DNA of 64,000 bases, taken from assembly GCA_964441955.1 (NCBI GenBank), contig CAYTWA010000004.1, positions 82,681-146,680 of the forward strand, in the 5' to 3' direction. The translations under genes were made by a program, and so were the position numbers. The first letter of the stretch is position 1, and the number at the start of each line of letters is the position of its first letter. Of this stretch, positions 1,623 to 23,371 are shown piece by piece. The DNA comes from an uncultured Elusimicrobia bacterium. Its GTDB lineage: Bacteria; Elusimicrobiota; Elusimicrobia; 2-01-FULL-59-12. The notes under the pieces are model-generated. The model was not told the origin of the DNA. It was given only the letters and a program-made list of their open reading frames with translations, and searched no databases.

Positions 1623-1967
1623 ATGGCCGGCACGATTCACCACGAACTAAAACGCCTCGTCAAAGAAGGGTTATTGCCCAAAGGACAGGTCCTTTTGATT
1701 GGCACTGGCGAGGGCCTGGAAGCCGTTCATTTGCTGGAGCATGGCTACGATGTGGTTGGCGTAGACCCGGACAAAGCCACGGTGCTCGCCACGCGAGAAA
1801 CCGTCTCCAGTCAGGGGTTTTTTGGGTATTTTCAAACTGGCGACCCGGCGCAACTTCCGGTGGAGGACCATTATTTTGATGCGGTTTGTGATTTTTTGGG
1901 TGCCCCGGAGTCGGAAGTCCGGCGGGTCCTTAAGCGCGGGGGGCTCTCGGTGAGGCTTATTCGATGA
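1623..1967 (+). CDS. Small class-I SAM-methyltransferase-like protein (fragment-sized, 114 aa)
   Basis: Gly-rich motif LLIGTGEGLEAVHLLEHGYDVVGVDPD resembles a SAM-binding motif I. ATGA overlap with the downstream gene. Confidence 0.35.
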   Translation: MAGTIHHELKRLVKEGLLPKGQVLLIGTGEGLEAVHLLEHGYDVVGVDPDKATVLATRETVSSQGFFGYFQTGDPAQLPVEDHYFDAVCDFLGAPESEVRRVLKRGGLSVRLIR

Positions 1968-3541: not shown

Positions 3542-3559
3542 AACCTTTCAGACGGTTTT

Positions 3560-6410
3560 TAACAGGCGATGTGTTTGGCTTGCTTAAGCCTATTGAACGG
3601 TAGGCCCATTGCCGATCCCTTTGGTCGAAGGACATCTTTAAGGCCTGATCCATCTCGGGCAGAATAGGACTACGATGCTTGCCTTGCTCGATTTACGGCG
3701 TTCTCTCGCTGGCGTTCTAGCCGGCCTCTTATGTTGACCGTTGTCCACGAATTGGGCATCGTCTTTTGGCCCTCTTTCGCACTCGTGTATTCCTCGGACT
3801 TATAGTGAGCAAGCCCTCATAGCGGCCCTGGGCCAATTTCTTCGGCCATTTTCAAAAAACGGAATTCGCCTTCGGCAGCAAGCAAGCGCGGCAGGAACCC
3901 ATTTTGGAACACGCGCAACGTACGCCAACGAACCCGATTTTTCATTGCCGGATGGCCAAAGAGTCACTTGGGACGAGGCGCATAAATTAATCACGGAGGG
4001 TCTTATCCATGACCCCTCAACGCTCATTTTTGAATGGGCCGCTTCACAACTGGAGATCAAGCAGCCCTCGTCATTAACAGCGACGCAAACCAAGATACGG
4101 GACAAGCTCGAGCGCGCCTTAAAAGAACTCGACCTCGAACGCGATGTTCCGATTCGTATTGTCCTTTTGGACGGAAAGACTAAAACGCAACGCTTTCCAA
4201 CCTTGGGCGACTCCGTGTGGGCGTTATCCAATACCGCGGATGACGCTCATTATTTGGAAGCCGGCGCCATCGGACATGCCTACCCGTCGGTCTACATGAC
4301 CCGCGAGCTGCTCCGCGACATCTCGCACAAAACGCTCGCCGATCGGCTTAAGGAAGAAATCGGTCATGCGTTGGAGAAAGCGAATGGCGTCCGAAAGGAG
4401 GAACACTGGGAAGATGACCCGAGTCGTTCAAATCATCTCTCCGAGATGAGAGGAGACATCCAACAAGCGGAGCGGTACCGCGAGGGGATATTGGTGGAGT
4501 TGGGTCGCGAATCCCAAGCTCCTATCGTATTGTCCAACAGTGTGGAGCAGCACCTTCGCAATCTGCCCCATGAAGACCTTCAGGCGATCTTCGCGCGACG
4601 ATTGAACCTACGGTTTGAGGCCTATCGGCAACTCTTTTTATCGCTCTGGTCAACGAACCCGATCGCAGCGTTTGAATACCTTGGGGCCGGAGTTCTAACC
4701 GATCAAGATGTCGTTGGCTCGATTCGCGAGTTGAGGGTTGTGCAAGTCCCAGACTGGATGAAAGCCTGCGTCCCTGCAGCTATTCTTAAGGGACGTTTCA
4801 TGGTTCAATATCGCTACGCCAAATCACCAACAATACGAATCGAGTGGGCCTATTTTCCCGATTTAAATCAATGGTTACCGGTATCGGCTGTCACGGTCCA
4901 AAACGATAAGCCCGTCTCAGAGAGAAGGCGAATTCGCAGCGTTTTTGTCATGCGAGATGGTTTTCCGGTTTTTCTGAAGTTTTTTCTAACAGGATTAACG
5001 CAAAAGACTTGGCCGAAATTAGCGGCCGCGGGAAATGAATTCCGTATTTATGGCCAAACACCTGCCTCGGGAGCCGTTTCATTGGTTTCGTCATCGCAAG
5101 TTTCGAATGAGAGCAATATGGAAGCACGAACGGCGGGGGTATATGAATTTGCACGCAACCTACTGGAACTCTACGGCGCCACAATCGACTCCGAAGGGTT
5201 CGCCCATCGACTCGATTGGGAAGGTACCGGAGAAGGCGTGCTTTTTATGCATGCGGTAAGTCGCAGCGCCAACGAGCCAGACAAAATCCTGGCAGCCGTC
5301 ATCATGAGGAACCAGTCACTTCTGGAATCGTTATCTACAAAATTTGAAACCTACTGGATAAAAGCAAGGCTACCCCAGGATCATTCCTCGACAGGTCCCT
5401 TTAGCATGAAACTCGGCACATTTAAGAATTTGGGCACGCACACAGCCTTGCCATTTGAAATCCATCTAAATCGCAAGTGGGCCGGTCGTCCAATAGAGAT
5501 CCAGTTGAGGCGAGGAATTCCAGTTTATATTCGAATATTGGATCAGGACACCGGATTTCCCCTGAAACAACATTTCCTGAAGCTTTTAGAGGTTCGAAGC
5601 CGAGATGGTGAAGTGCTTAAGACGATCAGGCCCTACTATTCCTCCACCTATTCCTCTGATTCCGAGCCCGTAAAAACCGCCCTAGCAATAGCTCAAGCAA
5701 GGGGTGGTTACGTCGTAGTGACAAATTTAAACCTTCGTAAAAGTCCCTATTACATTATTGCTCGAGCTTTTGAACAAACAACGAGAATCCCGCGTCGCAA
5801 CGTCCCAGATGATCAGCAAGCCAATGCTGCAGAAATTGTCTTTTCTCCCTCTATTATTTCGGGTCAGCCTGCGCTTAAATTAAACAAATTGCGTGTTGGC
5901 CGCTATAACCATGATGATCCTTTGTCTGCAGATCCGAGATACCTGGTAAACGTGACGGAATGCAAATTAGATATCCCAAGTCGGAAGATCCCTAATGACG
6001 CTATAAAATTATTTGTTGGTTTTCCTATGAATGTGCGCCGCGCGTTTTCGTCGAAAGTAAATCAAAGAAATTGGTCGATATTTATAAACGAATTGCTTTT
6101 CGAATGGCTTCAAACACCACAAGGTTCGACTTTTCTGCCCATTCAAAAAATGACAGAGATACCCAATCATGTGGGTTTTCGTTTCAGAATTCCTCGCGAA
6201 CTATATGCGGCTGTTGAAGATCGTCTTTTGGATTCGCCGTTGGGCGTTACCGATATCATCCGCACTCTGGTGAAAAATTATGTTAACCGACGGCAGCAAC
6301 CGGATCCCTCGTGCCTAACCGCTGCGTAGCACGAAACTTAACCCTGGGGACGCCCCCCCTTACTTTTTGTCCATGGGGGTTCCATAATGAGGCGCAAAAT
6401 GGAAACGATG
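3560..6410 (+). repeat. Segmental duplication copy 1 (upstream leader + paralog gene + downstream 32-bp palindromic element)
   Basis: Near-identical nucleotide blocks shared with 7750..10650, e.g. 3590..3730 vs 7770..7920 and 4010..4230 vs 8190..8410. Identical 32-mer GGTTCCATAATGAGGCGCAAAATGGAAACGAT at 6378..6409 and 10617..10648. Confidence 0.85.
3741..6329 (+). CDS. Large paralogous protein A (862 aa). Signal-peptide region interrupted by an in-frame TGA (3735..3737); possibly a pseudogene or N-terminally truncated
   Basis: Same frame as the upstream ATG 3675 (MLALLDLRRSLAGVLAGLLC*). Copy 2 has TTA where copy 1 has TGA. The first ~500 aa are highly similar to 7856..10510; the C-terminus has two RHH-like motifs. 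Confidence 0.6.
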   Translation: MSTNWASSFGPLSHSCIPRTYSEQALIAALGQFLRPFSKNGIRLRQQASAAGTHFGTRATYANEPDFSLPDGQRVTWDEAHKLITEGLIHDPSTLIFEWAASQLEIKQPSSLTATQTKIRDKLERALKELDLERDVPIRIVLLDGKTKTQRFPTLGDSVWALSNTADDAHYLEAGAIGHAYPSVYMTRELLRDISHKTLADRLKEEIGHALEKANGVRKEEHWEDDPSRSNHLSEMRGDIQQAERYREGILVELGRESQAPIVLSNSVEQHLRNLPHEDLQAIFARRLNLRFEAYRQLFLSLWSTNPIAAFEYLGAGVLTDQDVVGSIRELRVVQVPDWMKACVPAAILKGRFMVQYRYAKSPTIRIEWAYFPDLNQWLPVSAVTVQNDKPVSERRRIRSVFVMRDGFPVFLKFFLTGLTQKTWPKLAAAGNEFRIYGQTPASGAVSLVSSSQVSNESNMEARTAGVYEFARNLLELYGATIDSEGFAHRLDWEGTGEGVLFMHAVSRSANEPDKILAAVIMRNQSLLESLSTKFETYWIKARLPQDHSSTGPFSMKLGTFKNLGTHTALPFEIHLNRKWAGRPIEIQLRRGIPVYIRILDQDTGFPLKQHFLKLLEVRSRDGEVLKTIRPYYSSTYSSDSEPVKTALAIAQARGGYVVVTNLNLRKSPYYIIARAFEQTTRIPRRNVPDDQQANAAEIVFSPSIISGQPALKLNKLRVGRYNHDDPLSADPRYLVNVTECKLDIPSRKIPNDAIKLFVGFPMNVRRAFSSKVNQRNWSIFINELLFEWLQTPQGSTFLPIQKMTEIPNHVGFRFRIPRELYAAVEDRLLDSPLGVTDIIRTLVKNYVNRRQQPDPSCLTAA

Positions 6411-6474
6411 TCGAAAATGGTGCGACTAATCGATGGGATACCTCGTACCTTTATTTTCAGAAAGGGAAACGGGG

Positions 6475-7659
6475 TTAAGCTTCGTAAATGCGGGATACAT
6501 CTTGCCATGGGAGCGCGGTCACGTGGTCGGCTAAACGCATGGCGCGCGGCGCACGACAAATAATAAAAGCCTCCGTGGCTTGAGGATATTCCTTCAGAAA
6601 CGTGATGAGGTGCCGCGCATCCTGCAACGTCACAGACTCTGACCATTTCACTTCGACTGGGATGAGCTTCTCCGAATGACGCAACACCCAGTCGACCTCC
6701 GCTCCAGAGGTATCCTTCCAAAAATGAAGCGTGGTTCGAGGCAAAAAGCGCCGCGTGCTTCGAATCAGTTCCAGTCCTACCCACTGCTCGAACCAGTGAC
6801 CCCAGATCGAAAGCGCCGGTCGAACGCCTTCTTTCGCGGCGAAGCGACGTACACCCAAATCAAAAAAAAGATAACGCTGCGACCGAATGAGTTTTTTACG
6901 CGTGGCGCTTTGCGTCCAAGGCTCCACACGTTCAGTAATTAAGCAATCTTCCAAAATTTGGTAGTAGTCCATGATCGTGGAATGTGAAACACCGATGGTC
7001 TGGGATAATTTCTTAAAGTTCACGATGAGACCCGATTCGGCGGCCGCCAATTCCAAAAAGCGGCCAAAGGTGCCGACGTTTCTAACAATCGCTTCAGATC
7101 GAATTTCTTCCTCTAGGTAACTGGTCACGTAGGAATCCAACTCAGCGTCTTTTTGCGATTTCTCCGGCGTAAGCATGATCTGCGGAAGCGCTCCATAACG
7201 CAGGTGATCTTCGATGCGCGCGTGGGGGTATTCCGCGTGTGTCAGCGGATCCATTCGAAACGAAAGCACCCGTCCTGGGAGCAAATTGACCTGGCCGCGT
7301 TTTAGTTTTCGTGCCGACGAGCCGGTAAGAATAAATCGTGCTTTTTTGTTATCGATGAGATGCTGAACGACGTCCATGATCTGCGGAACTTTTTGGACTT
7401 CATCCAGAATCACGAGAGGGGGTTTGGCCTGTTTGCGCGAAGGTAATGCCGCAATTTCTCCTACAAGCGCTGAGGGGTTCATTTCGTACTTCTGTCGGAT
7501 TTTTGGCAAAAGAAACGACAACGAGAGATCGGCTGACAATGTCCCTAAAAAGGTGGACTTCCCTGTTTGACGAGGCCCTAGGAGTAGAACGCTTTTTCCC
7601 TTTGAGAGCGCTTCGTTTAAATAAGGGTCGATAGCTCGTTTGATTAACATCAGGATCAA
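6475..7659 (-). CDS. AAA+ ATPase (AAA_14 / DUF4143 family)
   Basis: Walker A GPRQTGKST and Walker B LVILDEVQ. C-terminal DUF4143-like region. 394 aa. Confidence 0.85.
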   Translation of the reverse strand: MILMLIKRAIDPYLNEALSKGKSVLLLGPRQTGKSTFLGTLSADLSLSFLLPKIRQKYEMNPSALVGEIAALPSRKQAKPPLVILDEVQKVPQIMDVVQHLIDNKKARFILTGSSARKLKRGQVNLLPGRVLSFRMDPLTHAEYPHARIEDHLRYGALPQIMLTPEKSQKDAELDSYVTSYLEEEIRSEAIVRNVGTFGRFLELAAAESGLIVNFKKLSQTIGVSHSTIMDYYQILEDCLITERVEPWTQSATRKKLIRSQRYLFFDLGVRRFAAKEGVRPALSIWGHWFEQWVGLELIRSTRRFLPRTTLHFWKDTSGAEVDWVLRHSEKLIPVEVKWSESVTLQDARHLITFLKEYPQATEAFIICRAPRAMRLADHVTALPWQDVSRIYEA

Positions 7660-7699
7660 TTTTCAAGGAAATTTGATCCTTTGTCAACAATATTCTATT

Positions 7700-7765
7700 G
7701 GTTATCGAGGTTCGAGGTCTTTAACGCGGTAGGTGGCGGCGGGGTCGTTGACGGTTGGCTCGCTT
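7700..7765 (-). pseudogene. 3'-terminal remnant of a membrane winged-helix regulator gene (...DPAATYRVKDLEPR*)
   Basis: About 30/36 nt identity to the 3' ends of genes 10703..11416 and 36745..37425. The minus-strand translation retains the DPAATY(G/R)VK motif but there is no upstream ORF. Confidence 0.35.
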
Positions 7766-10650
7766 GGGCCTATTGAACGGTAGGCACATTGCGCGGTGGC
7801 TTTGGTCGAAGGACATCTTTAAGGCCTGATCCATCTCGGGCAGAATAGGACTACGATGCTTGCCTTGCTCGATTTACGGCGTTCCCTCGCTGGCTTTCTA
7901 GCCGGCCTCTTATGTTTACCATTGTCCGTGAATGGGGCATCGTTTTTTGACCCTCTTTCTCACCCGCACATTCCTCCAATTTACAGTGAACAAGCTCTCG
8001 CCGCCGCCCTGGGTCAGTTTCTTCAGCCATTTTCAAAAAACGGAATTCGTCTCCGGCAGCAAGAAAGCGCGGCAGGAACCCATTTTGGAACACGCGCAAC
8101 GTACGCCAACGAAGCCGATTTATCGTTACCGGATGGTCAAAGAGTCACGTGGGACGAGACACATAAATTAATCACGGAGGGTCTTATCCATGACCCCTCA
8201 ACGCTCATTTTTGAATGGGCCGCTTCACAACTGGAGATCAAGCAGCCCTCGTCATTAACAGCGACGCAAACCAAGATACGGGACAAGCTCGAGCGCGCCT
8301 TAAAAGAACTCGACCTCGAACGCGATGTTCCGATTCGTATTGTCCTTTTGGACGGAAAGACTAAAACGCAACGCTTTCCAACCTTGGGCGATTCGGTGTG
8401 GGCGTTATCCAATACCGTGGACGACGCTCATTATTTGGAAGCCGGTGCTATCGGACATTCCTACCCGTCCGTTTACATGACCCGCGAGCTGCTCTGCGAC
8501 ATCGCGGACAAGACGCTCGCTGATCGGCTTCAAGAAGAAATCCGTCATGCGCTGGAGAAGGCGAATGGCGTCCGAAAGGCGGAACACTGGGAAGATGACC
8601 CGAATCGGTCAGAGCATCTCTTTACTTTAAGAGGAGACATCCAACAAGCTGAGCGGTACCGAAAGGGAATTTTGGAAGAGTTGGCTCGTCTATCCCAATC
8701 CCCTATCGTATTGTCCGACAGCGTGGAGCAGCAGATTCGCGATCTACCCTATCAAGACCTTCAGGCGATCTTCGCGCGACGCTTGAACCTACGGTTTGAG
8801 GACTATCGGCAACTCTTTTTATCGCTCTGGTCAACGAACCCGATCGCAGCGTTTGAATACCTTGGGGCCGGAGTTCTAACCGATCAAGATGTCGTTGGCT
8901 CGATTCGCGAGTTGCGAGACGTGCATGTTCCTTCCTGGATGAGAAACAACGTGCCTCCACCTATTCTCAAGGGGCGTTTCATGTTTCAATACCAACAGGC
9001 CAAATCACAGACAATCCGAATCGAGTGGGGTTATTTTCCCGATTTAAATCACTGGTTGCCTGTATCGGCTGCCACGGTCCAAAGCGATAAACTCATTACT
9101 ACGATAAATCAAATTCGCAGCGTTTTTGTCATGCGAGACGGTTCTCCGGTTTATCTAAAATATTTTCTAAGAGGCCTAACAAAAAAAGCTTGGTCCAAAT
9201 TGGCAGCCTCGGGGAACAATTACCGTATTTACGGTCAGGTATCGCCCTCGGGGACCGTTTCGCTCGTTACATCGCCGCGACCTGTGGCTGAGGGCAACAA
9301 GCAGGCAAGAGTGACTGGGGGATACATGTTCTCTCGCAACCCACTTGAACTCTATAGCGGTGAAATCGACCCTGAAGGGTTCGCCCACCGACTCGATTGG
9401 GAAGGTACGGGCGAAAGCGTGCCTTTTATGCATGCGATAAAGCGTGTCGTCAACCGGCCCGACCAAATCCTTGCGGCCGCGGTCACCCAGTGGGCCCAAC
9501 AGACGCTTGAGACTCTAACTGAAAAGCACGAGACCTTTTGGATAAGAACACGGCTACCATTAAAGGCCGTTTCGCAGCGTTCATCTATTTCCATGCAACT
9601 TGGGATCTTTAAGAGTTTTGGCATTGATTGGGGATTTCCGCTTGATATCAATGTCCATAATAAATGGGCAAATCATTCAATAGAAGTCAAAATTAAAAAT
9701 GGCTTTCCCGTTTGCATTCAGATTTTGCATTGCGATACGGGAAAAATGCTTGGTTTGTGGTTTTTTAAAATTTTAGAGGTCCGGGACCGCGAAGGAAAAG
9801 TGCTTGCCATGATAAGACCCTATAATTCCGATCTTCAGCCAGAAACGGAGGCTGTTAATATCGCCTCTAAATTGGCTCACGAACTTGGAGCTGAGGTCGT
9901 GGTAACCAATCTGGAACTTTATCGAGAACAAACACATTACAGGGCAGCGGCTTTGGGGCAGACGGCGAAGGTCGGGTTGGACCACGCCCAGTATCACAAG
10001 AAAGCCAAGGACGCAGAATTCGTTTTTGCTCCTATTCGTATAGCCAGACGTTTTGCGCTGAAGCCAATACGTCTGCGTGTCGGCCAATACAACCACCATG
10101 ACCCCCTCTCCAATAACAAAAGGGAACTGCTTGGCGTGACGGAATATCCGTTGGATTTTTCAGAACTTCCCCTTCCGTCCGATCTCATAACAAAAACTGT
10201 AAGATTTCCTGGCGCTCTATTAGATCGGTTTAGGGAAATAATGCCGGTGGGAAAAAGGATGTCGATTGTGATTAACACATTGCTTGCCCAATGGCTTGCA
10301 ACGTCACCTGGCGTGGCAATCAATAAATATGGGTCAACGCCATCGAATCAAAGGTCGACTAGTTTTAAAATTTCCCTCGCACTGCTTCGGGGGGTCGAAA
10401 ACCAAATTCAGGGCTTACCTTATTCCGTTGAAGTTATTATTCGCACGCTGGTGCAAAATTACGTTGACCAACATGGGCAATCCAATCGCGATTGCCTTAC
10501 AGCCTCCTAATCCGAACCTCGCAAGCGGCCTACGAAAATGGGGACGGTCCAAAAAAACGCTGACGTTACTTGTTTAGGACTGAGCGTCCCCATTTACTCT
10601 TGATTTATGACCCTATCGGTTCCATAATGAGGCGCAAAATGGAAACGATA
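7750..10650 (+). repeat. Segmental duplication copy 2
   Basis: See copy 1. Sequence identity is mosaic: perfect blocks alternate with diverged blocks. Confidence 0.85.
7856..10510 (+). CDS. Large paralogous protein B (884 aa), intact N-terminal signal peptide
   Basis: ATG start. Signal peptide MLALLDLRRSLAGFLAGLLCLPLSVNGA. Paralog of 3741..6329. C-terminal tandem RHH-like motifs (VRFPGALLDRFREIMPVGKRMSIVINTLLAQWL; FKISLALLRGVENQIQGLPYSVEVIIRTLVQNYV). Confidence 0.7.
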   Translation: MLALLDLRRSLAGFLAGLLCLPLSVNGASFFDPLSHPHIPPIYSEQALAAALGQFLQPFSKNGIRLRQQESAAGTHFGTRATYANEADLSLPDGQRVTWDETHKLITEGLIHDPSTLIFEWAASQLEIKQPSSLTATQTKIRDKLERALKELDLERDVPIRIVLLDGKTKTQRFPTLGDSVWALSNTVDDAHYLEAGAIGHSYPSVYMTRELLCDIADKTLADRLQEEIRHALEKANGVRKAEHWEDDPNRSEHLFTLRGDIQQAERYRKGILEELARLSQSPIVLSDSVEQQIRDLPYQDLQAIFARRLNLRFEDYRQLFLSLWSTNPIAAFEYLGAGVLTDQDVVGSIRELRDVHVPSWMRNNVPPPILKGRFMFQYQQAKSQTIRIEWGYFPDLNHWLPVSAATVQSDKLITTINQIRSVFVMRDGSPVYLKYFLRGLTKKAWSKLAASGNNYRIYGQVSPSGTVSLVTSPRPVAEGNKQARVTGGYMFSRNPLELYSGEIDPEGFAHRLDWEGTGESVPFMHAIKRVVNRPDQILAAAVTQWAQQTLETLTEKHETFWIRTRLPLKAVSQRSSISMQLGIFKSFGIDWGFPLDINVHNKWANHSIEVKIKNGFPVCIQILHCDTGKMLGLWFFKILEVRDREGKVLAMIRPYNSDLQPETEAVNIASKLAHELGAEVVVTNLELYREQTHYRAAALGQTAKVGLDHAQYHKKAKDAEFVFAPIRIARRFALKPIRLRVGQYNHHDPLSNNKRELLGVTEYPLDFSELPLPSDLITKTVRFPGALLDRFREIMPVGKRMSIVINTLLAQWLATSPGVAINKYGSTPSNQRSTSFKISLALLRGVENQIQGLPYSVEVIIRTLVQNYVDQHGQSNRDCLTAS

Positions 10651-10702
10651 AGGCGATTTTTAAAAACCCCTCTTCGATCCGCCCATGACTGGCTTTTGCA
10701 CC

Positions 10703-11416
10703 TTAAACCGAACCAACCCCTTTAACGCCGTAGGTAGCAGCGGGGTCGCTGGGGGAGGATCCACTGCGAACGAGCTCCCCTTCTTCTAACAATTCAGCCA
10801 GCAAGCGCGTCACGCTGCGGCGGGGAAGCGTTAAGGCTTCTCGAATCGTTTTGGGGGTTGAAGGGCCGTTTTGGCGCAGATAGGCGAGCACGTTTTCTCG
10901 TTCATCTCCGGAGGCGTTCCCGCGCGCTTTTCCACCCACGCGCTTGCGGTATTGGCGCAGGGCATAGGTGCCTAAAAAGAGGGCAATCACCTGCATGGTA
11001 ATCCGGGGAAGTTCGGGCGGCATGGGAATGGTGGGATCAGCAATTCGCCAGGTGACGGCCACCGCCCATAGAAGAAACCACGAGGTGATAAACGGCCCGC
11101 CTTTGCGCAGGCGCTCCGGCCAACCCTCGGGGTCCGGGTCCGCCGGGGCAATCGTTAACCGCTTGATCTCGGGGGCCCCCGCGTAGGCGCCCAGCACAAA
11201 GAGGTACATCTCCGCTAAAGGGTCCTGCGCTTTAAAGTTGCCGCGTGTAAGGATAAAGAGCAGGTTGTAAGCCAGCAAGTAAGCCGTCATTCCAAAGGCA
11301 AAAGGGCGCATGAAGAGGCTGCCGTCCTTCGGGGAGGGGACGCTAGGTTCGTGGGCTTCTGCGGGGTGCGCCATGCGGTGGACTATAGTATTTTTTGGCT
11401 CAGTTAACTGGCTCAC
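10703..11416 (-). CDS. Membrane-tethered winged-helix (MarR/PadR-like) regulator, paralog 1
   Basis: 3-4 predicted TM helices followed by a C-terminal wHTH (LAYLRQNGPSTPKTIREALTLPRRSVTRLLAELLEEGELVR). Conserved N-terminal FMRPF and C-terminal DPAATYGVKG shared with 36745..37425. True start may be an internal Met (11374 or 11311). Confidence 0.6.
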   Translation of the reverse strand: MSQLTEPKNTIVHRMAHPAEAHEPSVPSPKDGSLFMRPFAFGMTAYLLAYNLLFILTRGNFKAQDPLAEMYLFVLGAYAGAPEIKRLTIAPADPDPEGWPERLRKGGPFITSWFLLWAVAVTWRIADPTIPMPPELPRITMQVIALFLGTYALRQYRKRVGGKARGNASGDERENVLAYLRQNGPSTPKTIREALTLPRRSVTRLLAELLEEGELVRSGSSPSDPAATYGVKGVGSV

Positions 11417-11480
11417 TTAAATATCGACGAATGATAGAAACAGTGAGCCACTATGGCCCAGCATACTATAAATAGAATTA

Positions 11481-11498
11481 TATACCCATTCGGGTATA
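11481..11498. promoter_or_regulatory. Perfect palindrome TATACCCATTCGGGTATA (putative HipB operator 1)
   Basis: Read directly from the sequence. Lies in the AT-rich region upstream of hipB. Confidence 0.5.
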
Positions 11499-11550
11499 AA
11501 TCGATTAAAATAAATAATTTAGTCGCTTAAATTAAATATTATCAATTGAA

Positions 11551-11568
11551 TATACCCAATCGGGTATA
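11551..11568. promoter_or_regulatory. Perfect palindrome TATACCCAATCGGGTATA (putative HipB operator 2, overlapping a -10-like TATATAAT 13 nt before the hipB ATG)
   Basis: Second copy 70 bp downstream of the first. This arrangement is typical of autoregulated TA promoters. Confidence 0.5.
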
Positions 11569-11580
11569 TAATGATGCCGC

Positions 11581-11790
11581 ATGAATCCCATTGCTAAATT
11601 TATCAAGGTCCAAAGAAATCTATCTCGGTTGACACAAGTCCAACTCGCCACAAAAGCGGGTGTTGGTTTGCGTTTTATCCGCGATCTAGAACAGGGCAAA
11701 GAATCACTCCGGTCAGATATCTTAAACAAACTCCTTCGCTTTTTTGGGAAACAGCTAGGGCCCGTTGATTTGCCGAGAGATGAAGAATGA
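11581..11790 (+). CDS. hipB: HipB-like XRE-family HTH antitoxin (69 aa)
   Basis: HTH QVQLATKAGVGLRFIRDLEQGK. Stop overlaps the next start (ATGA). Confidence 0.75.
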   Translation: MNPIAKFIKVQRNLSRLTQVQLATKAGVGLRFIRDLEQGKESLRSDILNKLLRFFGKQLGPVDLPRDEE

Positions 11791-12116
11791 AAGCCGGCGT
11801 GTTTTATGGCGATATTTCTGCTGGAATTCTAACGAAGCATGACGGCTCCTATACCTTCTGTTATGAAAAGGCGTATTTAGACCGTCCGGACGCCCAACCC
11901 ATCAGTTTTTCACTTCCGCTTCAAATAGAGCCCTTTGAATGGAAAGAGTTTCCACCTTTCTTCGATGGTTTACTGCCTGAGGGATGGTTGTTGGAGTTGA
12001 GTGCTTCGAAATTCAAAATCGACCCCAAAGATAAGTTTTCAATGTTGTTGGCGATGGGTCATGATGGGATTGGTGCCGTAAGCGTTCAGGCATTGGAGGG
12101 CCCGGGTGCCGGCTAA
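11787..12116 (+). CDS. hipS: HipS-like protein (HipA N-terminal subdomain as a separate 109-aa polypeptide)
   Basis: HipA_N motifs FFDGLLPEGW and GHDGIGAVSV. Overlaps the downstream kinase gene. Confidence 0.7.
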   Translation: MKAGVFYGDISAGILTKHDGSYTFCYEKAYLDRPDAQPISFSLPLQIEPFEWKEFPPFFDGLLPEGWLLELSASKFKIDPKDKFSMLLAMGHDGIGAVSVQALEGPGAG

Positions 12117-13035
12117 CTGTCTGAGCTGTCATCGTCCGATACAGGGAGAAGCCTACCATTCCGCTTGTTTAATGAACCTTTTCGGAGTCGCCCGAGCGCC
12201 GAAGGTGTCCTTTGCGATTCCCGACATCCCCATCAAACTACGAGAGCCCACAGAAAAGATTTCACCCATTTCGGGAGTGCAGATCAAAACCTTTGTGCGA
12301 CTATACCCGCAGACACTTTCGTTGGATATCGCGCCTTCAGGGGGGACACACATTTTAAAACCCGATCCGCCTCAATACCCCGAACTATCGACCCTTGAAA
12401 ATGTATGCATGGCGATGGCAGCTGAATTGGAAATGGACGTTCCGCCGCACGGGTTATTCCCCATGCCAAACGGGATGCTTTGTTACGTGGTACGTCGATT
12501 TGACCGAGAGGCCGATGGCCGAAAAATTTCAAAAGAAGACTTGGCCCAAATCATCGGGGTTCCCTCAGACTCCAAATACCGAAGCTCGCTCGAATCGATC
12601 GGAAAGGCCATCCGGAAACTGGCCACGACGCCAGGGCTTGAGGCGTTGCGTTTTTGGGAACGGGTTTTGTTTTGCTACATGATCGGCAATGGGGACATGC
12701 ATCTTAAAAATTGGTCGTTGTTGAAAACATCGGACGGGCGCGTCCAATTATCACCCTGCTACGACTTCGTTTCTTCGGAAGTTTACTTTCGTGATGAGGA
12801 ATCCGCTCTCACCTTAAACGGCAAGAAGGCTCGCTTAAAACGGCTGGATTTCGATATCCTGGCCGCCTATCTCAAGATTGACCCCAAGGCGGCCTCCAAG
12901 GTGATTCAGATGTTTGAAGCGAAACATCCTGCCCTCATCGAAATGGTTATGGGTTCGCCTTTAACGTTGGACAAGAAAGAGAAGTTACTCGAAACGATGC
13001 AAGCTCGCCTGGCTGTTTTGTCCAAATCATCGTGA
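12106..13035 (+). CDS. hipT: HipT-like Ser/Thr kinase toxin (HipA C-terminal kinase core, 309 aa)
   Basis: Gly-rich loop SPISGVQIK at residues ~53-61. Catalytic motif GNGDMHLKNWS and DFVSS. GTG start. Stop overlaps the mfd start. Confidence 0.75.
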   Translation: MPANCLSCHRPIQGEAYHSACLMNLFGVARAPKVSFAIPDIPIKLREPTEKISPISGVQIKTFVRLYPQTLSLDIAPSGGTHILKPDPPQYPELSTLENVCMAMAAELEMDVPPHGLFPMPNGMLCYVVRRFDREADGRKISKEDLAQIIGVPSDSKYRSSLESIGKAIRKLATTPGLEALRFWERVLFCYMIGNGDMHLKNWSLLKTSDGRVQLSPCYDFVSSEVYFRDEESALTLNGKKARLKRLDFDILAAYLKIDPKAASKVIQMFEAKHPALIEMVMGSPLTLDKKEKLLETMQARLAVLSKSS

Positions 13036-16000
13036 AGCTTGCGGACCTTCCGGGAGGCAGCAAAGGGTATTTTTTGGCCAATTTGGCTTTGCGCGAAACG
13101 CGGCCGCTCGTAGTAATGGCAGGTGAGGACTTGGAAGCTGAGGGCCTATCCGCGGATGTGGAAGCATGGCTTGGTCTAAAGCCCTCTGCTCAAAACCCTC
13201 AACTCATCGTGTATCCGGAGTTCGATGCGCCGGGCCGCCTGGCGGCGCTTGGGCAAATGAAACAGGCCCGGCGGTTCATCGTTTTTGCCTCCAAAGCGGC
13301 CTCGCAATTGCCCACGACATCGCCCGCCCAATTACAAACACAGACCTTAGAACTTCGTCCGGGGCAGCTTTATCCGCGCACCGCCCTATTGGAAACGCTC
13401 GCGCAGGGCGGCTTTGACCGCACCGACATCGTCCAGATGGAAGGGGAAGTGGCCATCCGCGGGGAGGTCATCGACATTTGGCCGGCGGATGCGCAGAAAC
13501 CCTGGCGGCTCGTCTTCGACGGCGATACGCTGGAAACCCTGCGCGATTTTGAGTCCGGCACGCAGCGCTCCGGCGCCTACTTGGAACCGCAGAAGCTTTT
13601 ACCGATGAAAGAAACGAAATCCGACGCGACCCTAAAAGATCACGTTCCAACGGATGCAGTGTGGTTTGAAGATGATCCGCTCGCCGCCGAGACACTGAAT
13701 CCCGGCTTACGACCTGCCGGGGTGACGATAGAGAGTACCGTCGGTTTAACCGGCAGCCTTTCGCGCGCCGCCGAAGCGGCCGGGCGCGCCAAAGCCGAAG
13801 GGAAGAAAGTGATTTTCTTTAGCCACAACGCCGGCGAAAGCGAACGCCTGCAGGAACTATTGGATGAACACATGGGCTCCCGCGGCACAGAAGGGATGAA
13901 TTTTGTGGTGGGGCCGCTGCGTTCGGGGTTCCTGACGTCGTCGCCCCTGCCCACCGGTCAGGCAGGCCCGAATGTCTCTGTCGGGGGCCCATCGATGGAT
14001 CCCCGCCTACGACCTGCGGGGAAAACGGAACAAGGAATGCTCGTCCTCACCAACGCCGAGATCTTTAACCGCGCCCGGCATCGTCCGCGGCTGCCTAAGT
14101 TTAAAGGCGGCGGAGCCATCCAAGAAGTGCATGACGTCAAGCCCGGCGACTACGTGGTGCATGAGCATTACGGCGTTGGGCGCTATAAGGGCCTAGACTT
14201 GCTTCGCGCCGCGGGCCAGGAAGCGGAATATTTAAAACTCGAGTACGCCAAGGGCGATAAGCTCTATGTCCCCTTGTTTGATTTTAAACAGGTCCAGCGT
14301 TATTCGGGGTCGGAAGGGGCGCACCCGCGCTTGTCCTCCCTAGACACCTCCGCCTGGGAGCGCGTGAAAGCGCGCGTCAAAGAAAGCGTTCAAGAGCTGG
14401 CGAAGGATTTACTAAAAGTGCATGCCGCGCGCGCGGCACTCCCCGGACACGCGTTTTCCGCCGACTCCCATTTGGAACAAGAATTTGCGGCTTCATTCCT
14501 CTATGAAGAAACGAGCGACCAGCTTCGCACGATCGAAGAAATTAAACGCGACATGATGTCCACCAAACCGATGGACCGCCTGCTGCTGGGAGACGTTGGA
14601 TACGGCAAAACCGAAGTGGCCATGCGCGCCGCCATGAAAGCGATTGCGGATTCCAAGCAAGTTGCGGTGCTTGTTCCCACCACGATCCTAGCGGAACAGC
14701 ACTTCCGCACGTTCTGTGAACGTTTCGCGGACTACCCCGCCAAAATCGGCATGCTCTCGCGTTTCCAGACCGCCAAAGAAGAAAAAGAGGTGCTCGTGGG
14801 TGCGGCGAGTGGAACACTCGACATGGTGATCGGTACGCACCGGCTGCTGCAAAAAGACGTCCACTTCCACAATTTAGGGCTTTTGGTCATCGATGAAGAA
14901 CACCGTTTCGGCGTCAAAAACAAAGAGCAAATAAAAAAAATGCGCCAACACACAGATGTGCTCACGATGACGGCCACGCCGATCCCTCGAACCCTTTCGT
15001 TTGCATTAGCCGGGATGCGAGACCTTTCCGTCATCGAAACCCCGCCCACGGGCCGATTGCCCATCACCACCCATGTGGGCCCTTACGATGACGCCGTGAT
15101 CAAAGAGGCGATCCAAAAAGAACTGGCCCGCCACGGGCAAGTGTTTTACGTGCATAACCGCGTGCAGTCGCTGCCCACCCGGCTTAAATTTCTTCAGATG
15201 CTCATGCCCGGTATTTCCGTGGGCGTCGTGCATGGCCAAATGTCCGGCCCGGCAATTGAAAAAGTGATGTGGGAATTCGTCCACCAAAAACACCAAATTC
15301 TTTTGGCCACCACCATCATTGAATCGGGCATCGACATTCCAACGGCCAATACGCTCATCGTTGATGAGGCCGAAGAGTTTGGTTTAGCGCAGCTCTATCA
15401 ACTGCGCGGCCGGGTGGGGCGTGAGCGAACCAAGGCCTATTGCTACCTCTTTTTTTCACCCGGGGTGCCGCTGTCGGGGGACGCGCGCGCGCGCCTTGAA
15501 GCGCTTCGGGAATTTACGGCCTTAGGGTCCGGTCAGCGCTTGGCCATGCGGGATATGGAAATTCGAGGAGCGGGAAATCTTTTAGGCCAACAGCAGCACG
15601 GCCATATCGCGGCGGTGGGGTTGGACCTCTACTCCCAAATGCTGCAGGATGAAATCAGCGCCTTACGAGGTGAACCCCCTGCCACGAGCGTCCGTTTCCC
15701 CAGCATGGATTTGTCGCTTCATGCCTATCTTCCGGCGGACTACCTGCCGAGCGAAGAGCTGCGAATTCTTTTCTACAAAAAACTGGTCTCTGCGGAAACT
15801 CAGCAGGCCTTGGAGACCGTCCAAAACGAGCTGAGCGACCGCTTCGGAGCGCTGCCTCCCGAAGCCCAAACCTTGATGCGCGTCTCCCGCTTACGCATCA
15901 TCGCCCGTGATTTAGGGATCGACGGTCTCGTCCAAAAACCATCTTCCTTAGAAATCCGCTTCCTGCAAAACACACCCATCCAGCCCGCCACCATCTTGGA

Positions 16001-16133
16001 GCTCGCCCACACCCGCACCGGGGTTCGCTTCAAACCAGGCCCACCCTTTACGCTAATCATCGAAAAACTCGCCTACGAATCCACCGGAACGCTGCATTAC
16101 CTCGAGTCCCTCTTCACCACCTTAACCGCCTGA
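13032..16133 (+). CDS. mfd: Transcription-repair coupling factor Mfd
   Basis: Superfamily-2 helicase motifs (GDVGYGKTEVA, DEEHRFGV, TATPIPRT, QLRGRVGR). 1033 aa. Confidence 0.95.
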   Translation: MKLADLPGGSKGYFLANLALRETRPLVVMAGEDLEAEGLSADVEAWLGLKPSAQNPQLIVYPEFDAPGRLAALGQMKQARRFIVFASKAASQLPTTSPAQLQTQTLELRPGQLYPRTALLETLAQGGFDRTDIVQMEGEVAIRGEVIDIWPADAQKPWRLVFDGDTLETLRDFESGTQRSGAYLEPQKLLPMKETKSDATLKDHVPTDAVWFEDDPLAAETLNPGLRPAGVTIESTVGLTGSLSRAAEAAGRAKAEGKKVIFFSHNAGESERLQELLDEHMGSRGTEGMNFVVGPLRSGFLTSSPLPTGQAGPNVSVGGPSMDPRLRPAGKTEQGMLVLTNAEIFNRARHRPRLPKFKGGGAIQEVHDVKPGDYVVHEHYGVGRYKGLDLLRAAGQEAEYLKLEYAKGDKLYVPLFDFKQVQRYSGSEGAHPRLSSLDTSAWERVKARVKESVQELAKDLLKVHAARAALPGHAFSADSHLEQEFAASFLYEETSDQLRTIEEIKRDMMSTKPMDRLLLGDVGYGKTEVAMRAAMKAIADSKQVAVLVPTTILAEQHFRTFCERFADYPAKIGMLSRFQTAKEEKEVLVGAASGTLDMVIGTHRLLQKDVHFHNLGLLVIDEEHRFGVKNKEQIKKMRQHTDVLTMTATPIPRTLSFALAGMRDLSVIETPPTGRLPITTHVGPYDDAVIKEAIQKELARHGQVFYVHNRVQSLPTRLKFLQMLMPGISVGVVHGQMSGPAIEKVMWEFVHQKHQILLATTIIESGIDIPTANTLIVDEAEEFGLAQLYQLRGRVGRERTKAYCYLFFSPGVPLSGDARARLEALREFTALGSGQRLAMRDMEIRGAGNLLGQQQHGHIAAVGLDLYSQMLQDEISALRGEPPATSVRFPSMDLSLHAYLPADYLPSEELRILFYKKLVSAETQQALETVQNELSDRFGALPPEAQTLMRVSRLRIIARDLGIDGLVQKPSSLEIRFLQNTPIQPATILELAHTRTGVRFKPGPPFTLIIEKLAYESTGTLHYLESLFTTLTA

Positions 16134-16219: not shown

Positions 16220-16765
16220 TTGCTTTTGAGGCACCAGGTCCCAGACGACAAACCCCTCGTCATCTTGGATGAAATTCATAAATACGCCAAGTGGCGCGGG
16301 TTGATTAAAGGACTGCACGATACTCGAAAATCCAAGCAGCGTTTTCTGGTCTCGGGTTCAGCGCGCCTGGACTACTACCGTAAGGGAGGAGATTCGCTTC
16401 AGGGTCGCTACCATTATTACCGGCTACATCCGTTTAGTCTTCGGGAGTTAGACCCTTGCGCATCTTCGTCATCGCTTGCATCGCTTCTGCGGTTCGGTGG
16501 ATTTCCCGTACCAGTCTTGGCGGGAAGCGACCGAGACCACCGCCGCTGGCAAAAAGAACATACGGAACGAATCCTGAACGAAGACCTAAGAGATCTCGAG
16601 CGAGTGCGCGAAATTTCCCTTATCGAACTTTCGATACCTTGGTGCCAGGCACCCGATTCCCCATTCCAATTCGCTCCGCCGAATGGTTTGTTTCATGCGT
16701 GTCTAAAAAATTTGACACCATTTTCAACGAGTTCTGCGGCCAATGGATTCCGTGACCATAAATAA
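16220..16765 (+). pseudogene. 5'-truncated, C-terminally aberrant fragment of an AAA_14/DUF4143 ATPase (paralog of 6475..7659)
   Basis: Begins at the Walker-B region LVILDEIHKY with no Walker A. Only 87 nt separate it from the mfd stop. The C-terminal half diverges from the intact copy. Confidence 0.5.
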
Positions 16766-22035: not shown

Positions 22036-22264
22036 AACCGGCATAACCGCCCCGCCTTGTGGGTAAGCCCGCGGCCTGGGGATAGGTGGGATAACCTCAA
22101 CATGTTATTCAGGTTCTGTCCCGATGATGAGAGATGGGAAAAGATGTTGAAATTAAAAGTCTTTGATTGCTCCAAAAATGTTGTGCCTGTTTTCCAATGC
22201 TCTACTACGACTACGGCTGGTTTCTTTATATAGAGAGTTAAATTAGATAGACTGGATAACCTTC
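22036..22264. promoter_or_regulatory. oriC-like dnaA-dnaN spacer: DnaA-box-like 9-mers plus an AT-rich putative DUE
   Basis: GTGGGATAA (22076..22084; 8/9 to TGTGGATAA) and CTGGATAAC (22250..22258; 7/9). AT-rich block 22150..22245. Confidence 0.5.

Positions 22265-23370: not shown

Positions 23371-23371
<1 letters not shown>
22265..23371 (+). CDS. dnaN: DNA polymerase III beta sliding clamp
   Basis: 368 aa. Typical N-terminal MQIVCSKSEL and three-domain length. Immediately downstream of dnaA. Confidence 0.95.

What the first reader, a model, noticed from the sequence alone, without database searches (positions are those of the whole stretch)
11581..13035. Tripartite hipB-hipS-hipT toxin-antitoxin module (split HipA) directly overlapping the mfd start
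Three overlapping ORFs are present: a 69-aa XRE HTH protein; a 109-aa HipA_N-only protein (FFDGLLPEGW, GHDGIGAV); and a 309-aa HipA kinase core (Gly-rich loop SPISGVQIK near residue 55, GNGDMHLKNWS catalytic motif, DFVSS). Gene order and sizes match the HipBST systems described in E. coli O127, where HipS is the antitoxin and HipT autophosphorylates on Ser in the Gly-rich loop. The hipT stop overlaps the annotated GTG start of mfd (13032), so the TA module could be co-transcribed with mfd.
Basis: partly seen in the sequence, partly recalled or inferred. Interest (0 to 1): 0.65.

Follow-up and report, generated by a model that had tools for sequence, protein, structure and literature searches.

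The report
HipBST toxin-antitoxin module abutting mfd
This is an intact three-gene HipBST kinase toxin-antitoxin cassette, a known kind of system, sitting in an Elusimicrobia chromosome directly in front of the DNA-repair gene mfd, which it probably now helps to transcribe; it is an ordinary family member with an unusual, recurrent genomic position.

Summary
Three overlapping ORFs encode an Xre-type HTH protein (HipB, 69 aa), a HipA-N-subdomain protein (HipS, 109 aa) and a HipA core kinase (HipT, 309 aa). All pass the Pfam thresholds, and each finds its Legionella HipBST counterpart as best solved structure. The catalytic residues, the RxDR motif and the HipS Glu/Trp plug are intact, and the genes are under purifying selection.

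- The system is closer to the Legionella type than to E. coli O127.
- The canonical autophosphorylation serine is a proline here (S-P-I-S), a derived state seen in 3 of 120 relatives. Only the second site survives.
- Two perfect TATACCC-N4-GGGTATA palindromes upstream of hipB are conserved across the family. They are the likely HipB operators, and the proximal one overlaps a -10 box.

The hipT stop does overlap the mfd GTG start, and that start aligns with the ATG of a relative that lacks hipBST. The hipBST-mfd adjacency recurs in 6 of 8 informative clade loci. Relatives with empty sites, and loci carrying extra TA modules there, show that the mfd-upstream junction is an insertion hot spot.

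Verdict: a new member of a known kind, of modest interest.

The parts
11481..11498 (.). Distal candidate HipB operator, perfect 18-bp palindrome TATACCCATTCGGGTATA
   Evidence: only two exact matches in 64 kb (0.08 expected even with 2 mismatches); the same palindrome lies about 100-120 nt upstream of hipB in related loci.
11551..11568 (.). Proximal candidate HipB operator TATACCCAATCGGGTATA, 70 bp from the distal copy, 12 nt before the hipB ATG
   Evidence: conserved at -20 to -40 in relatives. It sits between a -35-like TTGAAT (11546-11551) and overlaps a -10-like TATAAT (11567-11572).
11546..11572 (+). Putative hipBST promoter: TTGAAT, 15-nt spacer, TATAAT. The -10 ends 8 nt before the ATG, so the hipB mRNA would be leaderless or nearly so (inferred).
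   Evidence: Read from the sequence. Equivalent TTGAAT/TTGAAA ... TATAAT/TATACT/TATATT elements flank the proximal operator in L002, L003, L004 and L006. The consensus scan did not report it because its spacer range is 16-18.
11581..11790 (+). hipB: 69-aa Xre-type HTH repressor
   Evidence: HTH_3 1e-7. TIGR03070 couple_hipB 62.2 bits, below its 71.65 cut-off; best PDB hit HipB(Lp) 8ezt, 1.6e-6.
11787..12116 (+). hipS: 109-aa homologue of HipA N-subdomain 1, the predicted antitoxin. E65 and W67 (TGG 11985-11987) correspond to HipS-Ec E63 and W65.
   Evidence: Couple_hipA 3e-27. HipS(Lp) 3e-19, HI_0666 4.5e-11, HipS-Ec 1.6e-7. PEGW in all close relatives.
12095..12099 (+). Shine-Dalgarno GGAGG, 6 nt before the hipT GTG start
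   Evidence: The start is also supported by the invariant M1, C5 and C8 in the clade alignment.
12106..13035 (+). hipT: 309-aa HipA-type Ser/Thr kinase core, the predicted toxin. Gly-rich loop S53-P54-I55-S56-G57-V58-Q59-I60-K61 (nt 12262-12288); RxDR R131/R134; catalytic GNGDMHLKN with D197/H199/K201/N202 (nt 12685-12711); Mg-binding D220; N-terminal C5xxC8...H18xxC21.
   Evidence: HipA_C 2e-45. HipT(Lp) 4e-40, HipT-Ec 4e-18, HipA 4e-11; motif survey and invariant columns; dN 0.17 against saturated dS.
13032..16133 (+). mfd (transcription-repair coupling factor, 1033 aa). Its GTG start overlaps the hipT stop (GTGA). No Shine-Dalgarno, no terminator and no gap.
   Evidence: all Mfd domains. 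TIGR00580 963 bits; 100% identical NCBI protein; the start aligns with the ATG of L117; no terminator-like site on the + strand between hipT and mfd.
3542..13031 (.). Accessory insert of about 9.5 kb between the conserved 525-aa gene (1964-3541) and mfd; hipBST is its mfd-proximal end
   Evidence: the 525-aa ORF is 64% identical to the gene whose stop overlaps the mfd start in L117, L118 and L119; hipBST GC is 0.39-0.51, against 0.57-0.62 for mfd.

Best explanation
The locus is a functional, chromosomally fixed HipBST type II toxin-antitoxin operon of the Legionella-like subtype, inserted immediately upstream of mfd in an Elusimicrobia lineage.

Proposed mechanism. Steps marked [shown] rest on sequence tests done here. 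Steps marked [inferred] rest on the characterised E. coli O127 and L. pneumophila systems.
1. HipB dimers bind two 18-bp palindromes, TATACCC-N4-GGGTATA, 70 bp apart. The proximal one lies in the -35/-10 spacer and overlaps the -10, so HipB represses the operon. [Operators shown by conservation; binding inferred.]
2. HipS binds HipT next to the Gly-rich loop. Its conserved Glu65/Trp67 plug holds the loop in the ejected, ATP-incompetent state. [Residues shown; mechanism inferred.]
3. Free HipT (catalytic D197, Mg-binding D220, RxDR R131/R134 all present) phosphorylates a cellular target and arrests growth. That target is TrpS in E. coli O127 and unknown in Legionella. [Inferred.]
4. Because the main autophosphorylation serine is Pro54, self-regulation can only use S56 (equivalent to Ec S59) or the newly adjacent S53. 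[Substitution shown; consequence inferred.]
5. mfd is most likely transcribed as a fourth cistron from the HipB-controlled promoter and translated by coupling to hipT. It follows with a 4-nt overlap and has no Shine-Dalgarno, no terminator and no recognisable internal promoter, and the gene upstream of hipB is on the opposite strand. hipT has taken over the coupling role that a conserved ~530-aa gene plays in relatives without the cassette. [Inferred.]
For: - ORFs and overlaps.
- Pfam and NCBIfam assignments.
- Best PDB hits are HipT, HipS and HipB of L. pneumophila, then E. coli O127 and H. influenzae.
- Catalytic and regulatory motifs are invariant in the clade alignment and present in 119-121 of 122 family members.
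- HipS PEGW is conserved.
- dN is 0.16-0.25 while dS is saturated.
- The hipB-hipS-hipT order holds in about 60 related metagenomic loci.
- Operators: only two exact copies in 64 kb (0.08 expected). Counting matches with up to 3 mismatches, 49 fall in 10.9 kb of hipB-upstream DNA against 2 in 300 kb of background.
- Published functions: HipB_Lp binds its promoter and HipS_Lp neutralises HipT_Lp; D197Q and D219Q abolish toxicity (bioRxiv 10.1101/2022.11.26.518041). The HipS Trp65 plug is described in PMC10627512.
- mfd coupling: the GTGA overlap and the start aligned to L117; no terminator; no Shine-Dalgarno and no consistent internal promoter.
- hipBST-mfd adjacency occurs in L003, L004/L005, L006, L120 and L121/L122 as well as the window.
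- HipT and Mfd groupings are congruent.
Against: - No experiment exists for this module. Toxicity, neutralisation, DNA binding and the target are all by analogy.
- The principal phospho-serine is lost (Pro54), so regulation may differ from both model systems.
- HipB scores below the TIGR03070 cut-off (62.2 against 71.65 bits).
- The putative promoter has a 15-nt spacer and was not picked up by the consensus scan, and Elusimicrobia promoter rules are unknown.
- Co-transcription with mfd is not shown. L004 has a 30-nt gap with an AAGG element before mfd, L121/L122 have a hipBA module between hipBST and mfd, and two clade members (L002, L123) carry the cassette elsewhere. Direct hipT-mfd coupling is therefore not obligatory.
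Confidence: 0.82

Rival explanations
1. Passenger at an insertion hot spot. The cassette is a working TA module, but its position next to mfd has no regulatory meaning. mfd is expressed from its own promoter inside hipT, and the adjacency exists only because the junction between the ~530-aa gene and mfd is a permissive integration site near oriC.
For: - Empty sites in L117, L118 and L119 show the ancestral state.
- The same site holds vapBC plus hipBST in L003, hipBST plus hipBA in L121/L122, and a 9.5-kb insert with a PDC-S01 candidate defence gene in the window.
- L002 and L123 carry the cassette away from mfd.
- hipBST GC is 5-10 points below mfd in all four loci measured.
Against: - No sigma-70-like promoter recurs in the last 400 nt of hipT.
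- The 4-nt overlap without a Shine-Dalgarno occurs in the window, L003 and L120.
- In the window the next upstream gene is on the opposite strand, so read-through from anywhere other than the hipBST promoter is unlikely.
- The hot-spot idea and co-transcription are not mutually exclusive.
Confidence: 0.3
2. Primary role in phage defence. HipT is an abortive-infection kinase released on infection, and the module is part of a small defence island rather than a persistence or stabilisation module.
For: - The insert contains an AAA_14/DUF4143 ATPase matching the PADLOC candidate system PDC-S01 at 2e-62, with a second truncated copy after mfd.
- HipT itself weakly matches the candidate defence family PDC-M03A (4.5e-9).
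- TA modules commonly act in phage defence (general knowledge; stated in the abstract of PMC8262856).
Against: - The PADLOC matches of HipT are weak and partial.
- No phage-defence phenotype was found in the HipBST papers read here.
- The module is vertically retained next to a housekeeping gene over Mfd divergence of 60-70%, which is unusual for fast-turnover defence genes.
- Nothing related was found in phage genomes.
Confidence: 0.2
3. Decaying or domesticated remnant. The kinase is inactive, for example because of the Pro54 substitution, and the cassette survives only as a promoter and leader for mfd.
For: - Loss of the canonical phospho-serine.
- mfd appears to depend on the upstream ORF for translational coupling.
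Against: - All three ORFs are intact in every clade member.
- All catalytic and HipS-interface residues are invariant.
- dN is far below the saturated dS for hipB, hipS and hipT.
- Pro54 is conserved in three orthologues that are 68-75% identical, which argues for a selected variant.
- Known active HipT groups also lack a Ser at one of the two sites (PMC10627512).
Confidence: 0.05
4. Direct functional link. HipT acts on Mfd or on the transcription machinery, or HipBST senses transcription stress, which would explain the conserved neighbourhood.
For: - Adjacency in 6 of 8 informative clade loci.
- The target of the closest characterised homologue, HipT_Lp, is unknown and differs from TrpS and GltX (bioRxiv 10.1101/2022.11.26.518041).
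Against: - None of about 40 broader-family loci with enough downstream DNA has mfd nearby.
- A hipBA module can sit between hipBST and mfd.
- The cassette also occurs at unrelated loci.
- The adjacency is fully explained by one old insertion plus vertical descent.
Confidence: 0.04

Closest known systems
HipBST of Legionella pneumophila (Lpg2368-Lpg2370; PDB 7VKB, 7WCF, 8EZR, 8EZT)
   Same: - Same three-gene order, and each protein is the best solved-structure match (HipT 4e-40, HipS 3e-19, HipB 1.6e-6).
- Similar sizes (solved chains of about 76, 102 and 312 aa against 69, 109 and 309 aa here).
- Catalytic D197 and H199 have identical numbering; the Mg-binding Asp (D219 in Lp, D220 here) and RxDR (R131/R134) are conserved.
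   Different: - The Lp loop is M-S54-V-Q56-G, phosphorylated on S54. Here it is S53-P54-I-S56-G, so the Lp phospho-site is a proline and the Lp Gln is a serine.
- Lp HipS has Ile where this HipS has Trp67.
- The Lp module lies in accessory effector clusters, not next to mfd.
HipBST of enteropathogenic E. coli O127:H6 (PDB 7AB3-7AB5)
   Same: - Split HipA architecture.
- The HipS Glu/Trp plug (E63/W65 against E65/W67 here).
- The second loop serine (S59 against S56 here).
- RxDR and the catalytic and Mg-binding aspartates.
   Different: - More distant (HipT 4e-18, HipS 1.6e-7).
- O127 HipB is 107 aa and HipT is 335 aa.
- The O127 loop is S57-I-S59 with both sites phosphorylated, and S57 is the more important one (PMC10627512). 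Here S57 is replaced by Pro.
- O127 HipT lacks the N-terminal CxxC...HxxC motif (alignment).
- The TrpS target is known only for O127.
HipBA of E. coli K-12
   Same: Homologous kinase core and N-subdomain (E about 1e-10 and 1e-6). An HTH repressor binds multiple palindromic operators in the promoter.
   Different: - HipA is a single 440-aa chain, and HipB rather than the N-subdomain is the antitoxin.
- The operator is TATCC-N8-GGATA (my recollection, not checked here) rather than TATACCC-N4-GGGTATA.
- The target is GltX.
Environmental M-S-I-S HipT family (about 305 aa, Elusimicrobia, Anaerolineales and Actinobacteria MAGs)
   Same: - 45-52% identical HipT with the same hipB-hipS-hipT order.
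- The same operator palindrome in many members, the same N-terminal Cys/His motif and the same PEGW in HipS.
   Different: Nearly all have the canonical S-I-S loop (116 of 120), and none of those examined is next to mfd.

Membership tests
HipBST tripartite toxin-antitoxin (Hip kinase clade III, Gerdes et al. 2021) | Three-gene operon in the order hipB-hipS-hipT, closely spaced or overlapping | tested here: met
   4-nt and 11-nt overlaps; the same order in related loci.
HipBST tripartite toxin-antitoxin (Hip kinase clade III, Gerdes et al. 2021) | HipT is a HipA-like core kinase lacking the ~100-aa N-subdomain 1 | tested here: met
   only HipA_C (2e-45) in a 309-aa protein; aligns to HipT(Lp) residues 54-305 and to HipA residues 134-368.
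HipBST tripartite toxin-antitoxin (Hip kinase clade III, Gerdes et al. 2021) | HipS is a ~100-aa protein homologous to HipA N-subdomain 1, encoded just upstream of hipT | tested here: met
   Couple_hipA 95 bits, TIGR03071 101 bits. HipS(Lp) 3e-19, HipA residues 13-103 at 1e-6.
HipBST tripartite toxin-antitoxin (Hip kinase clade III, Gerdes et al. 2021) | HipB is an HTH protein encoded first | tested here: met
   HTH_3 32.3 bits, above the cut-off of 23. HipB(Lp) is the best PDB hit. The specific NCBIfam model TIGR03070 scores 62.2, below its cut-off of 71.65.
HipBST tripartite toxin-antitoxin (Hip kinase clade III, Gerdes et al. 2021) | [quoted passage not shown] | tested here: met
   G57-x-Q59-x-K61, GNGDMHLKN (D197) and YD220F are present and invariant in the clade. 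RxDR R131/R134 is present.
HipBST tripartite toxin-antitoxin (Hip kinase clade III, Gerdes et al. 2021) | Ser/Thr at the first autophosphorylation position beside the Gly-rich loop (HipA S150, HipT-Ec S57, HipT-Lp S54) | tested here: not met
   Pro54 aligns with that position; 116 of 120 relatives have Ser there, and only the window, P0001 and P0002 have Pro. The second site (S56, equivalent to Ec S59) and an adjacent S53 are present. Published HipT groups such as psi-psi-T also lack the first Ser/Thr (PMC10627512), so this is a variable feature and not a strict criterion.
HipBST tripartite toxin-antitoxin (Hip kinase clade III, Gerdes et al. 2021) | HipS Trp (Ec W65) and Glu (E63) that plug the HipT active site | tested here: met
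   alignment: E65 and W67. PEGW in all close relatives. [quoted passage not shown]
HipBST tripartite toxin-antitoxin (Hip kinase clade III, Gerdes et al. 2021) | HipB autoregulates by binding the operon's promoter | tested here: inconclusive
   Conserved paired palindromes overlap a -10-like box, which is strong comparative support. Binding itself cannot be tested in silico.
HipBST tripartite toxin-antitoxin (Hip kinase clade III, Gerdes et al. 2021) | HipT is growth-inhibitory through kinase activity and is neutralised by HipS, not by HipB | not testable with these tools
   Needs expression and rescue assays. Known for the Ec and Lp systems (PMC6581861; PMC9325769; bioRxiv 10.1101/2022.11.26.518041).
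HipBST tripartite toxin-antitoxin (Hip kinase clade III, Gerdes et al. 2021) | Target is tryptophanyl-tRNA synthetase (E. coli O127 type) | not testable with these tools
   The target of the closer Legionella homologue is unknown and differs from TrpS and GltX.
Canonical HipBA | Single-chain HipA (~440 aa) with the N-subdomain fused to the kinase core | tested here: not met
   the N-subdomain and the core are separate ORFs with separate start codons and an 11-nt overlap in different frames. The split is conserved in all relatives, so it is not a frameshift artefact.
Mfd / TRCF (downstream gene) | UvrB-homology module, RNAP-interacting domain, SF2 translocase and C-terminal TRCF domain; equivalog HMM above its cut-off | tested here: met
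   UvrB_inter, CarD_TRCF_RID, DEAD, Helicase_C and TRCF. TIGR00580 963 bits against a cut-off of 800.

The most novel reading that the evidence does not exclude
In one Elusimicrobia lineage, mfd has become the fourth cistron of a HipB-repressed toxin-antitoxin operon. Conditions that de-repress hipBST (antitoxin or repressor turnover under stress) would then raise Mfd at the same time as HipT arrests translation. That would be a hard-wired link between kinase-induced dormancy and transcription-coupled repair or mutagenesis. It has been conserved since before the split of two subclades whose Mfd proteins are only about 60% identical.
Probability: 0.2. Interest if true: 0.55.

Novelty: new member of a known kind. 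Interest (0 to 1): 0.3.

Why it matters
HipBST is an established toxin-antitoxin family, so the module adds little on its own. Three things are worth keeping.
1. A defined 18-bp operator consensus (TATACCC-N4-GGGTATA, in 2-4 copies) for a large environmental HipBST family. I found no operator sequence for any HipBST system in the papers I read.
2. A natural S-to-P replacement at the phospho-site that the E. coli work regards as the more important one, with an evolutionary intermediate (S-S-I-S). This offers a test of how loop phosphorylation regulates HipT.
3. A housekeeping repair gene, mfd, that has apparently been captured behind a TA promoter and kept there across considerable divergence, at a junction that repeatedly acquires TA and defence-like genes. 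If mfd expression really depends on the HipB-controlled promoter, it would show how selfish cassettes can rewire the regulation of a core gene.

Tried and rejected
- The exact-sequence look-up of the window's HipT found nothing. In the near-identical contig L001 the gene caller used an internal ATG (208 aa). The GTG start is preferred because of the GGAGG Shine-Dalgarno and the conserved N-terminus.
- The single genome-contig scan, spent on Mfd, returned only relatives of 49% identity or less from Clostridia and Campylobacterales. It was useless for taxonomy or synteny. The taxon (Elusimicrobiota) came instead from named Mfd homologues.
- The metagenome scan with the clade alignment yielded only one more close relative, cut off inside hipT (L037).
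- Rfam and tRNA scans of the window found nothing, so there is no tRNA-type integration site.
- Phage genomes hold essentially no relative, and plasmids hold only Bacteroidota and other homologues of 39.5% identity or less. There is no evidence that this cassette is currently on a known mobile element.
- A search for a conserved sigma-70-like promoter in the 3' part of hipT gave nothing consistent.
- dN/dS could not be quantified properly because dS is saturated. Only the qualitative conclusion (dN far below dS) is used.
- A downstream ATG (13117) as the mfd start was considered and rejected. The conserved LPGGSKG segment lies upstream of it, and L117 starts at the position of the window's GTG.
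- Structure prediction was not run, because the sequence matches to solved HipBST chains were already decisive.
Full report
**1. The observation.**
The three ORFs exist exactly where stated: 11581-11790 (69 aa), 11787-12116 (109 aa) and 12106-13035 (309 aa, GTG start). They overlap by 4 nt (ATGA) and 11 nt. A GGAGG sits 6 nt before the hipT GTG.

Pfam gives HTH_3 (1e-7, 32 bits against a cut-off of 23), Couple_hipA (3e-27) and HipA_C (2e-45). NCBIfam gives TIGR03071 for ORF2. For ORF1 it gives TIGR03070 'couple_hipB' at 62 bits, just under its cut-off of 71.65.

The next ORF (13032-16133, 1033 aa) carries every Mfd domain and scores 963 bits on the mfd equivalog, whose cut-off is 800. Its GTG overlaps the hipT TGA (GTGA).

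**2. What the proteins are.**
Each ORF's best hit among solved structures is the matching chain of the Legionella pneumophila HipBST system:
- HipT(Lp): 4e-40
- HipS(Lp): 3e-19
- HipB(Lp): 1.6e-6

E. coli O127 HipT and HipS and H. influenzae HI_0666 come next, and then K-12 HipA.

HipT retains K85, the RxDR motif (R131/R134), the catalytic GNGDMHLKN (D197, H199, K201, N202) and the Mg-binding YD220F. These motifs are invariant in the closest clade and present in 119-121 of 122 family members. In Legionella, D197Q, D219Q and H199A abolish activity or toxicity.

HipS keeps E65 and W67. These are the counterparts of E63 and W65 of E. coli HipS, where the Trp wedges into the pocket formed by the ejected Gly-rich loop (PMC10627512). 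PEGW is conserved in all close relatives.

Between orthologues dN is 0.16-0.25 while dS is saturated, so all three genes are under purifying selection.

**3. The Gly-rich loop is a derived variant.**
The loop reads S53-P54-I55-S56-G57-V58-Q59-I60-K61. Alignments to HipT(Lp) and to the S57A and S59A crystal variants of E. coli HipT place the residues as follows:
- P54 sits on Lp S54, Ec S57 and HipA S150.
- S56 sits on Lp Q56 and Ec S59.

Of 120 family members with a recognisable loop, 116 are S-x-S (105 of them M-S-I-S). Only the window and its two nearest relatives (75% and 68% identical) are S-P-I-S. The next relative is S-S-I-S, a plausible intermediate.

[quoted passage not shown] That paper finds the first site to be the more conserved and the more important for neutralisation by HipS. 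P-psi-S is not among the listed groups.

This does not remove the protein from the family, because other groups also lack one site. It does mean that autophosphorylation control must differ from both model systems.

**4. Regulatory DNA.**
Two perfect 18-bp palindromes, TATACCCATTCGGGTATA (11481-11498) and TATACCCAATCGGGTATA (11551-11568), lie 70 bp apart upstream of hipB. They are the only exact matches in the 64-kb window, where 0.08 matches are expected even when 2 mismatches are allowed.

The same palindrome occurs in the same two positions in all five close loci examined. Across 39 related loci it gives 49 matches in 10.9 kb of hipB-upstream DNA, against 2 in 300 kb of background. Loci whose HipB is at least 55% identical usually have 2-4 copies.

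The proximal copy lies between a -35-like TTGAAT and a -10-like TATAAT, and it overlaps the -10. The -10 ends 4-8 nt before the hipB ATG in the five loci. This suggests a leaderless or near-leaderless hipB message, which is an inference.

HipB_Lp is known to shift its own promoter DNA. I found no operator sequence for any HipBST system in the papers read.

**5. Genomic setting.**
The window's Mfd is identical to an NCBI protein on a 216-kb contig. It belongs to a tight clade of about 50 Mfd sequences (64-79% identical) that includes named Elusimicrobia MAGs, and the next relatives are at 47%. A second contig (L001) is 99.9% identical to the window.

In clade members without the cassette (L117, L118 and L119) the gene order is:
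- a methyltransferase
- a ~530-aa gene with no Pfam domain
- mfd
- two SurA-like genes
- pdxA
- ksgA
- dnaA

In these loci the ~530-aa gene's stop overlaps the mfd start, or directly abuts it in L119. The window has the downstream series as well, with dnaA at 20653 and dnaN at 22265. It also has the ~530-aa orthologue at 1964-3541, 64% identical to L117's.

So 3542-13031 is a 9.5-kb accessory insert. It contains:
- two paralogous ORFs of about 870 aa that arose by duplication
- an AAA_14/DUF4143 ATPase matching the PADLOC candidate PDC-S01 at 2e-62
- a MarR-like membrane protein on the minus strand
- hipBST, next to mfd

hipBST GC is 0.39-0.51, against 0.57-0.62 for mfd. A similar offset of 5-10 points is seen in the three other loci measured.

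**6. The mfd junction.**
The window's GTG aligns base-for-base with the ATG of L117 (tcGTGAAGCTT against cgATGAAGCTC; MKLADLPGGSKG against MKLTGLPGGSKG). The start call is therefore sound, and a 4-nt overlap with whatever lies upstream is ancestral to mfd.

mfd has no Shine-Dalgarno in most clade members, and no terminator-like site or consistent promoter precedes it. In the window the gene upstream of hipB is on the other strand. The simplest reading is that mfd is transcribed from the hipB promoter and translated by coupling to hipT.

**7. How general the linkage is.**
Within the HipT clade (at least 59% identical), hipBST lies directly upstream of mfd in these loci:
- the window
- L120 (GTGA overlap)
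- L003 (ATGA overlap)
- L006 (10-nt gap)
- L004/L005 (30-nt gap)
- L121/L122, where a canonical hipBA module sits between hipBST and mfd

It lies elsewhere in L002 and L123. None of about 40 broader-family loci with enough downstream DNA has mfd nearby.

HipT and Mfd give the same two groupings: {window, L003, L117} and {L004, L006, L118}. This fits one old insertion inherited with mfd and later lost in some lines. The vapBC in L003, the hipBA in L121 and the large insert in the window show that the junction is also a hot spot for accessory genes. No paper in the searchable library links hipBST with mfd.

**8. Verdict.**
This is a bona fide, apparently functional HipBST module, closest to the Legionella type. 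It has a derived P-I-S loop, a well-defined operator pair and a recurrent position as the immediate upstream neighbour of mfd, with which it is probably co-transcribed.

It is a new member of a known kind. The regulatory capture of mfd is the only aspect with more than routine interest, and it remains to be shown.

Noticed in passing
window 12118-12171 (HipT residues 5-21): An N-terminal C5-x2-C8 ... H18-x2-C21 motif, zinc-knuckle-like, is conserved in 119 of 122 HipT family members but absent from E. coli O127 HipT. Residues 4-28 of Legionella HipT were once likened to the RING ligase FANCL (PMC9325769). No metal site is discussed in the papers read.
   Followed up: partly
window 3575-6409 and 7755-10649: A segmental duplication. 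Two paralogous large ORFs (862 aa at 3741-6329 and 884 aa at 7856-10510) have no Pfam or PADLOC match. Their 5' regions are about 90% identical over 300 nt (3619-3918 against 7800-8099), and a 51-nt repeat follows each (6359-6409 and 10599-10649; the last 32 nt are identical).
   Followed up: partly
window 6475-7659 (-) and 16220-16765 (+): An AAA_14/DUF4143 ATPase strongly matches the PADLOC candidate defence gene PDC-S01 (2e-62). A second, N-terminally truncated copy lies between mfd and the SurA-like genes, where relatives have no gene. mfd is therefore flanked by defence-like accessory DNA.
   Followed up: partly
L121 1527-3051 and L122 1545-3027: A canonical hipB-hipA module (HTH protein of 93 aa in L121 and 79 aa in L122, plus a full-length 416-aa HipA) sits between hipBST and mfd. 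It has its own, different palindrome (TTCCCGATCGGGAA) upstream. Two Hip-type modules are stacked at the same junction.
   Followed up: partly
L003 157-841: An RHH/PIN (vapBC-like) toxin-antitoxin pair lies between the end of the ~530-aa gene and hipBST. This is a further accessory module at the mfd-upstream hot spot.
   Followed up: no
window 20653-23371: dnaA and dnaN lie about 7.5 kb downstream of hipBST, so the cassette and the accessory insert sit close to the presumed chromosomal replication origin.
   Followed up: no
window 40455-54236: A giant ORF of 4593 aa on the + strand. It was not examined.
   Followed up: no
window 10703-11416 (-): A 237-aa protein transcribed divergently from hipB. 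It has a hydrophobic N-terminal half and a weak MarR-like winged helix at the C-terminus (sub-threshold Pfam hits). Its GC is about 0.60-0.63, unlike the neighbouring hipBST.
   Followed up: no
L123 1790-1910: Two tandem copies of GAAATTGGGACGGTCCTAACTAAATAACTAT lie immediately after hipT in a clade member that is not linked to mfd. This may be a scar or an att-like repeat.
   Followed up: no
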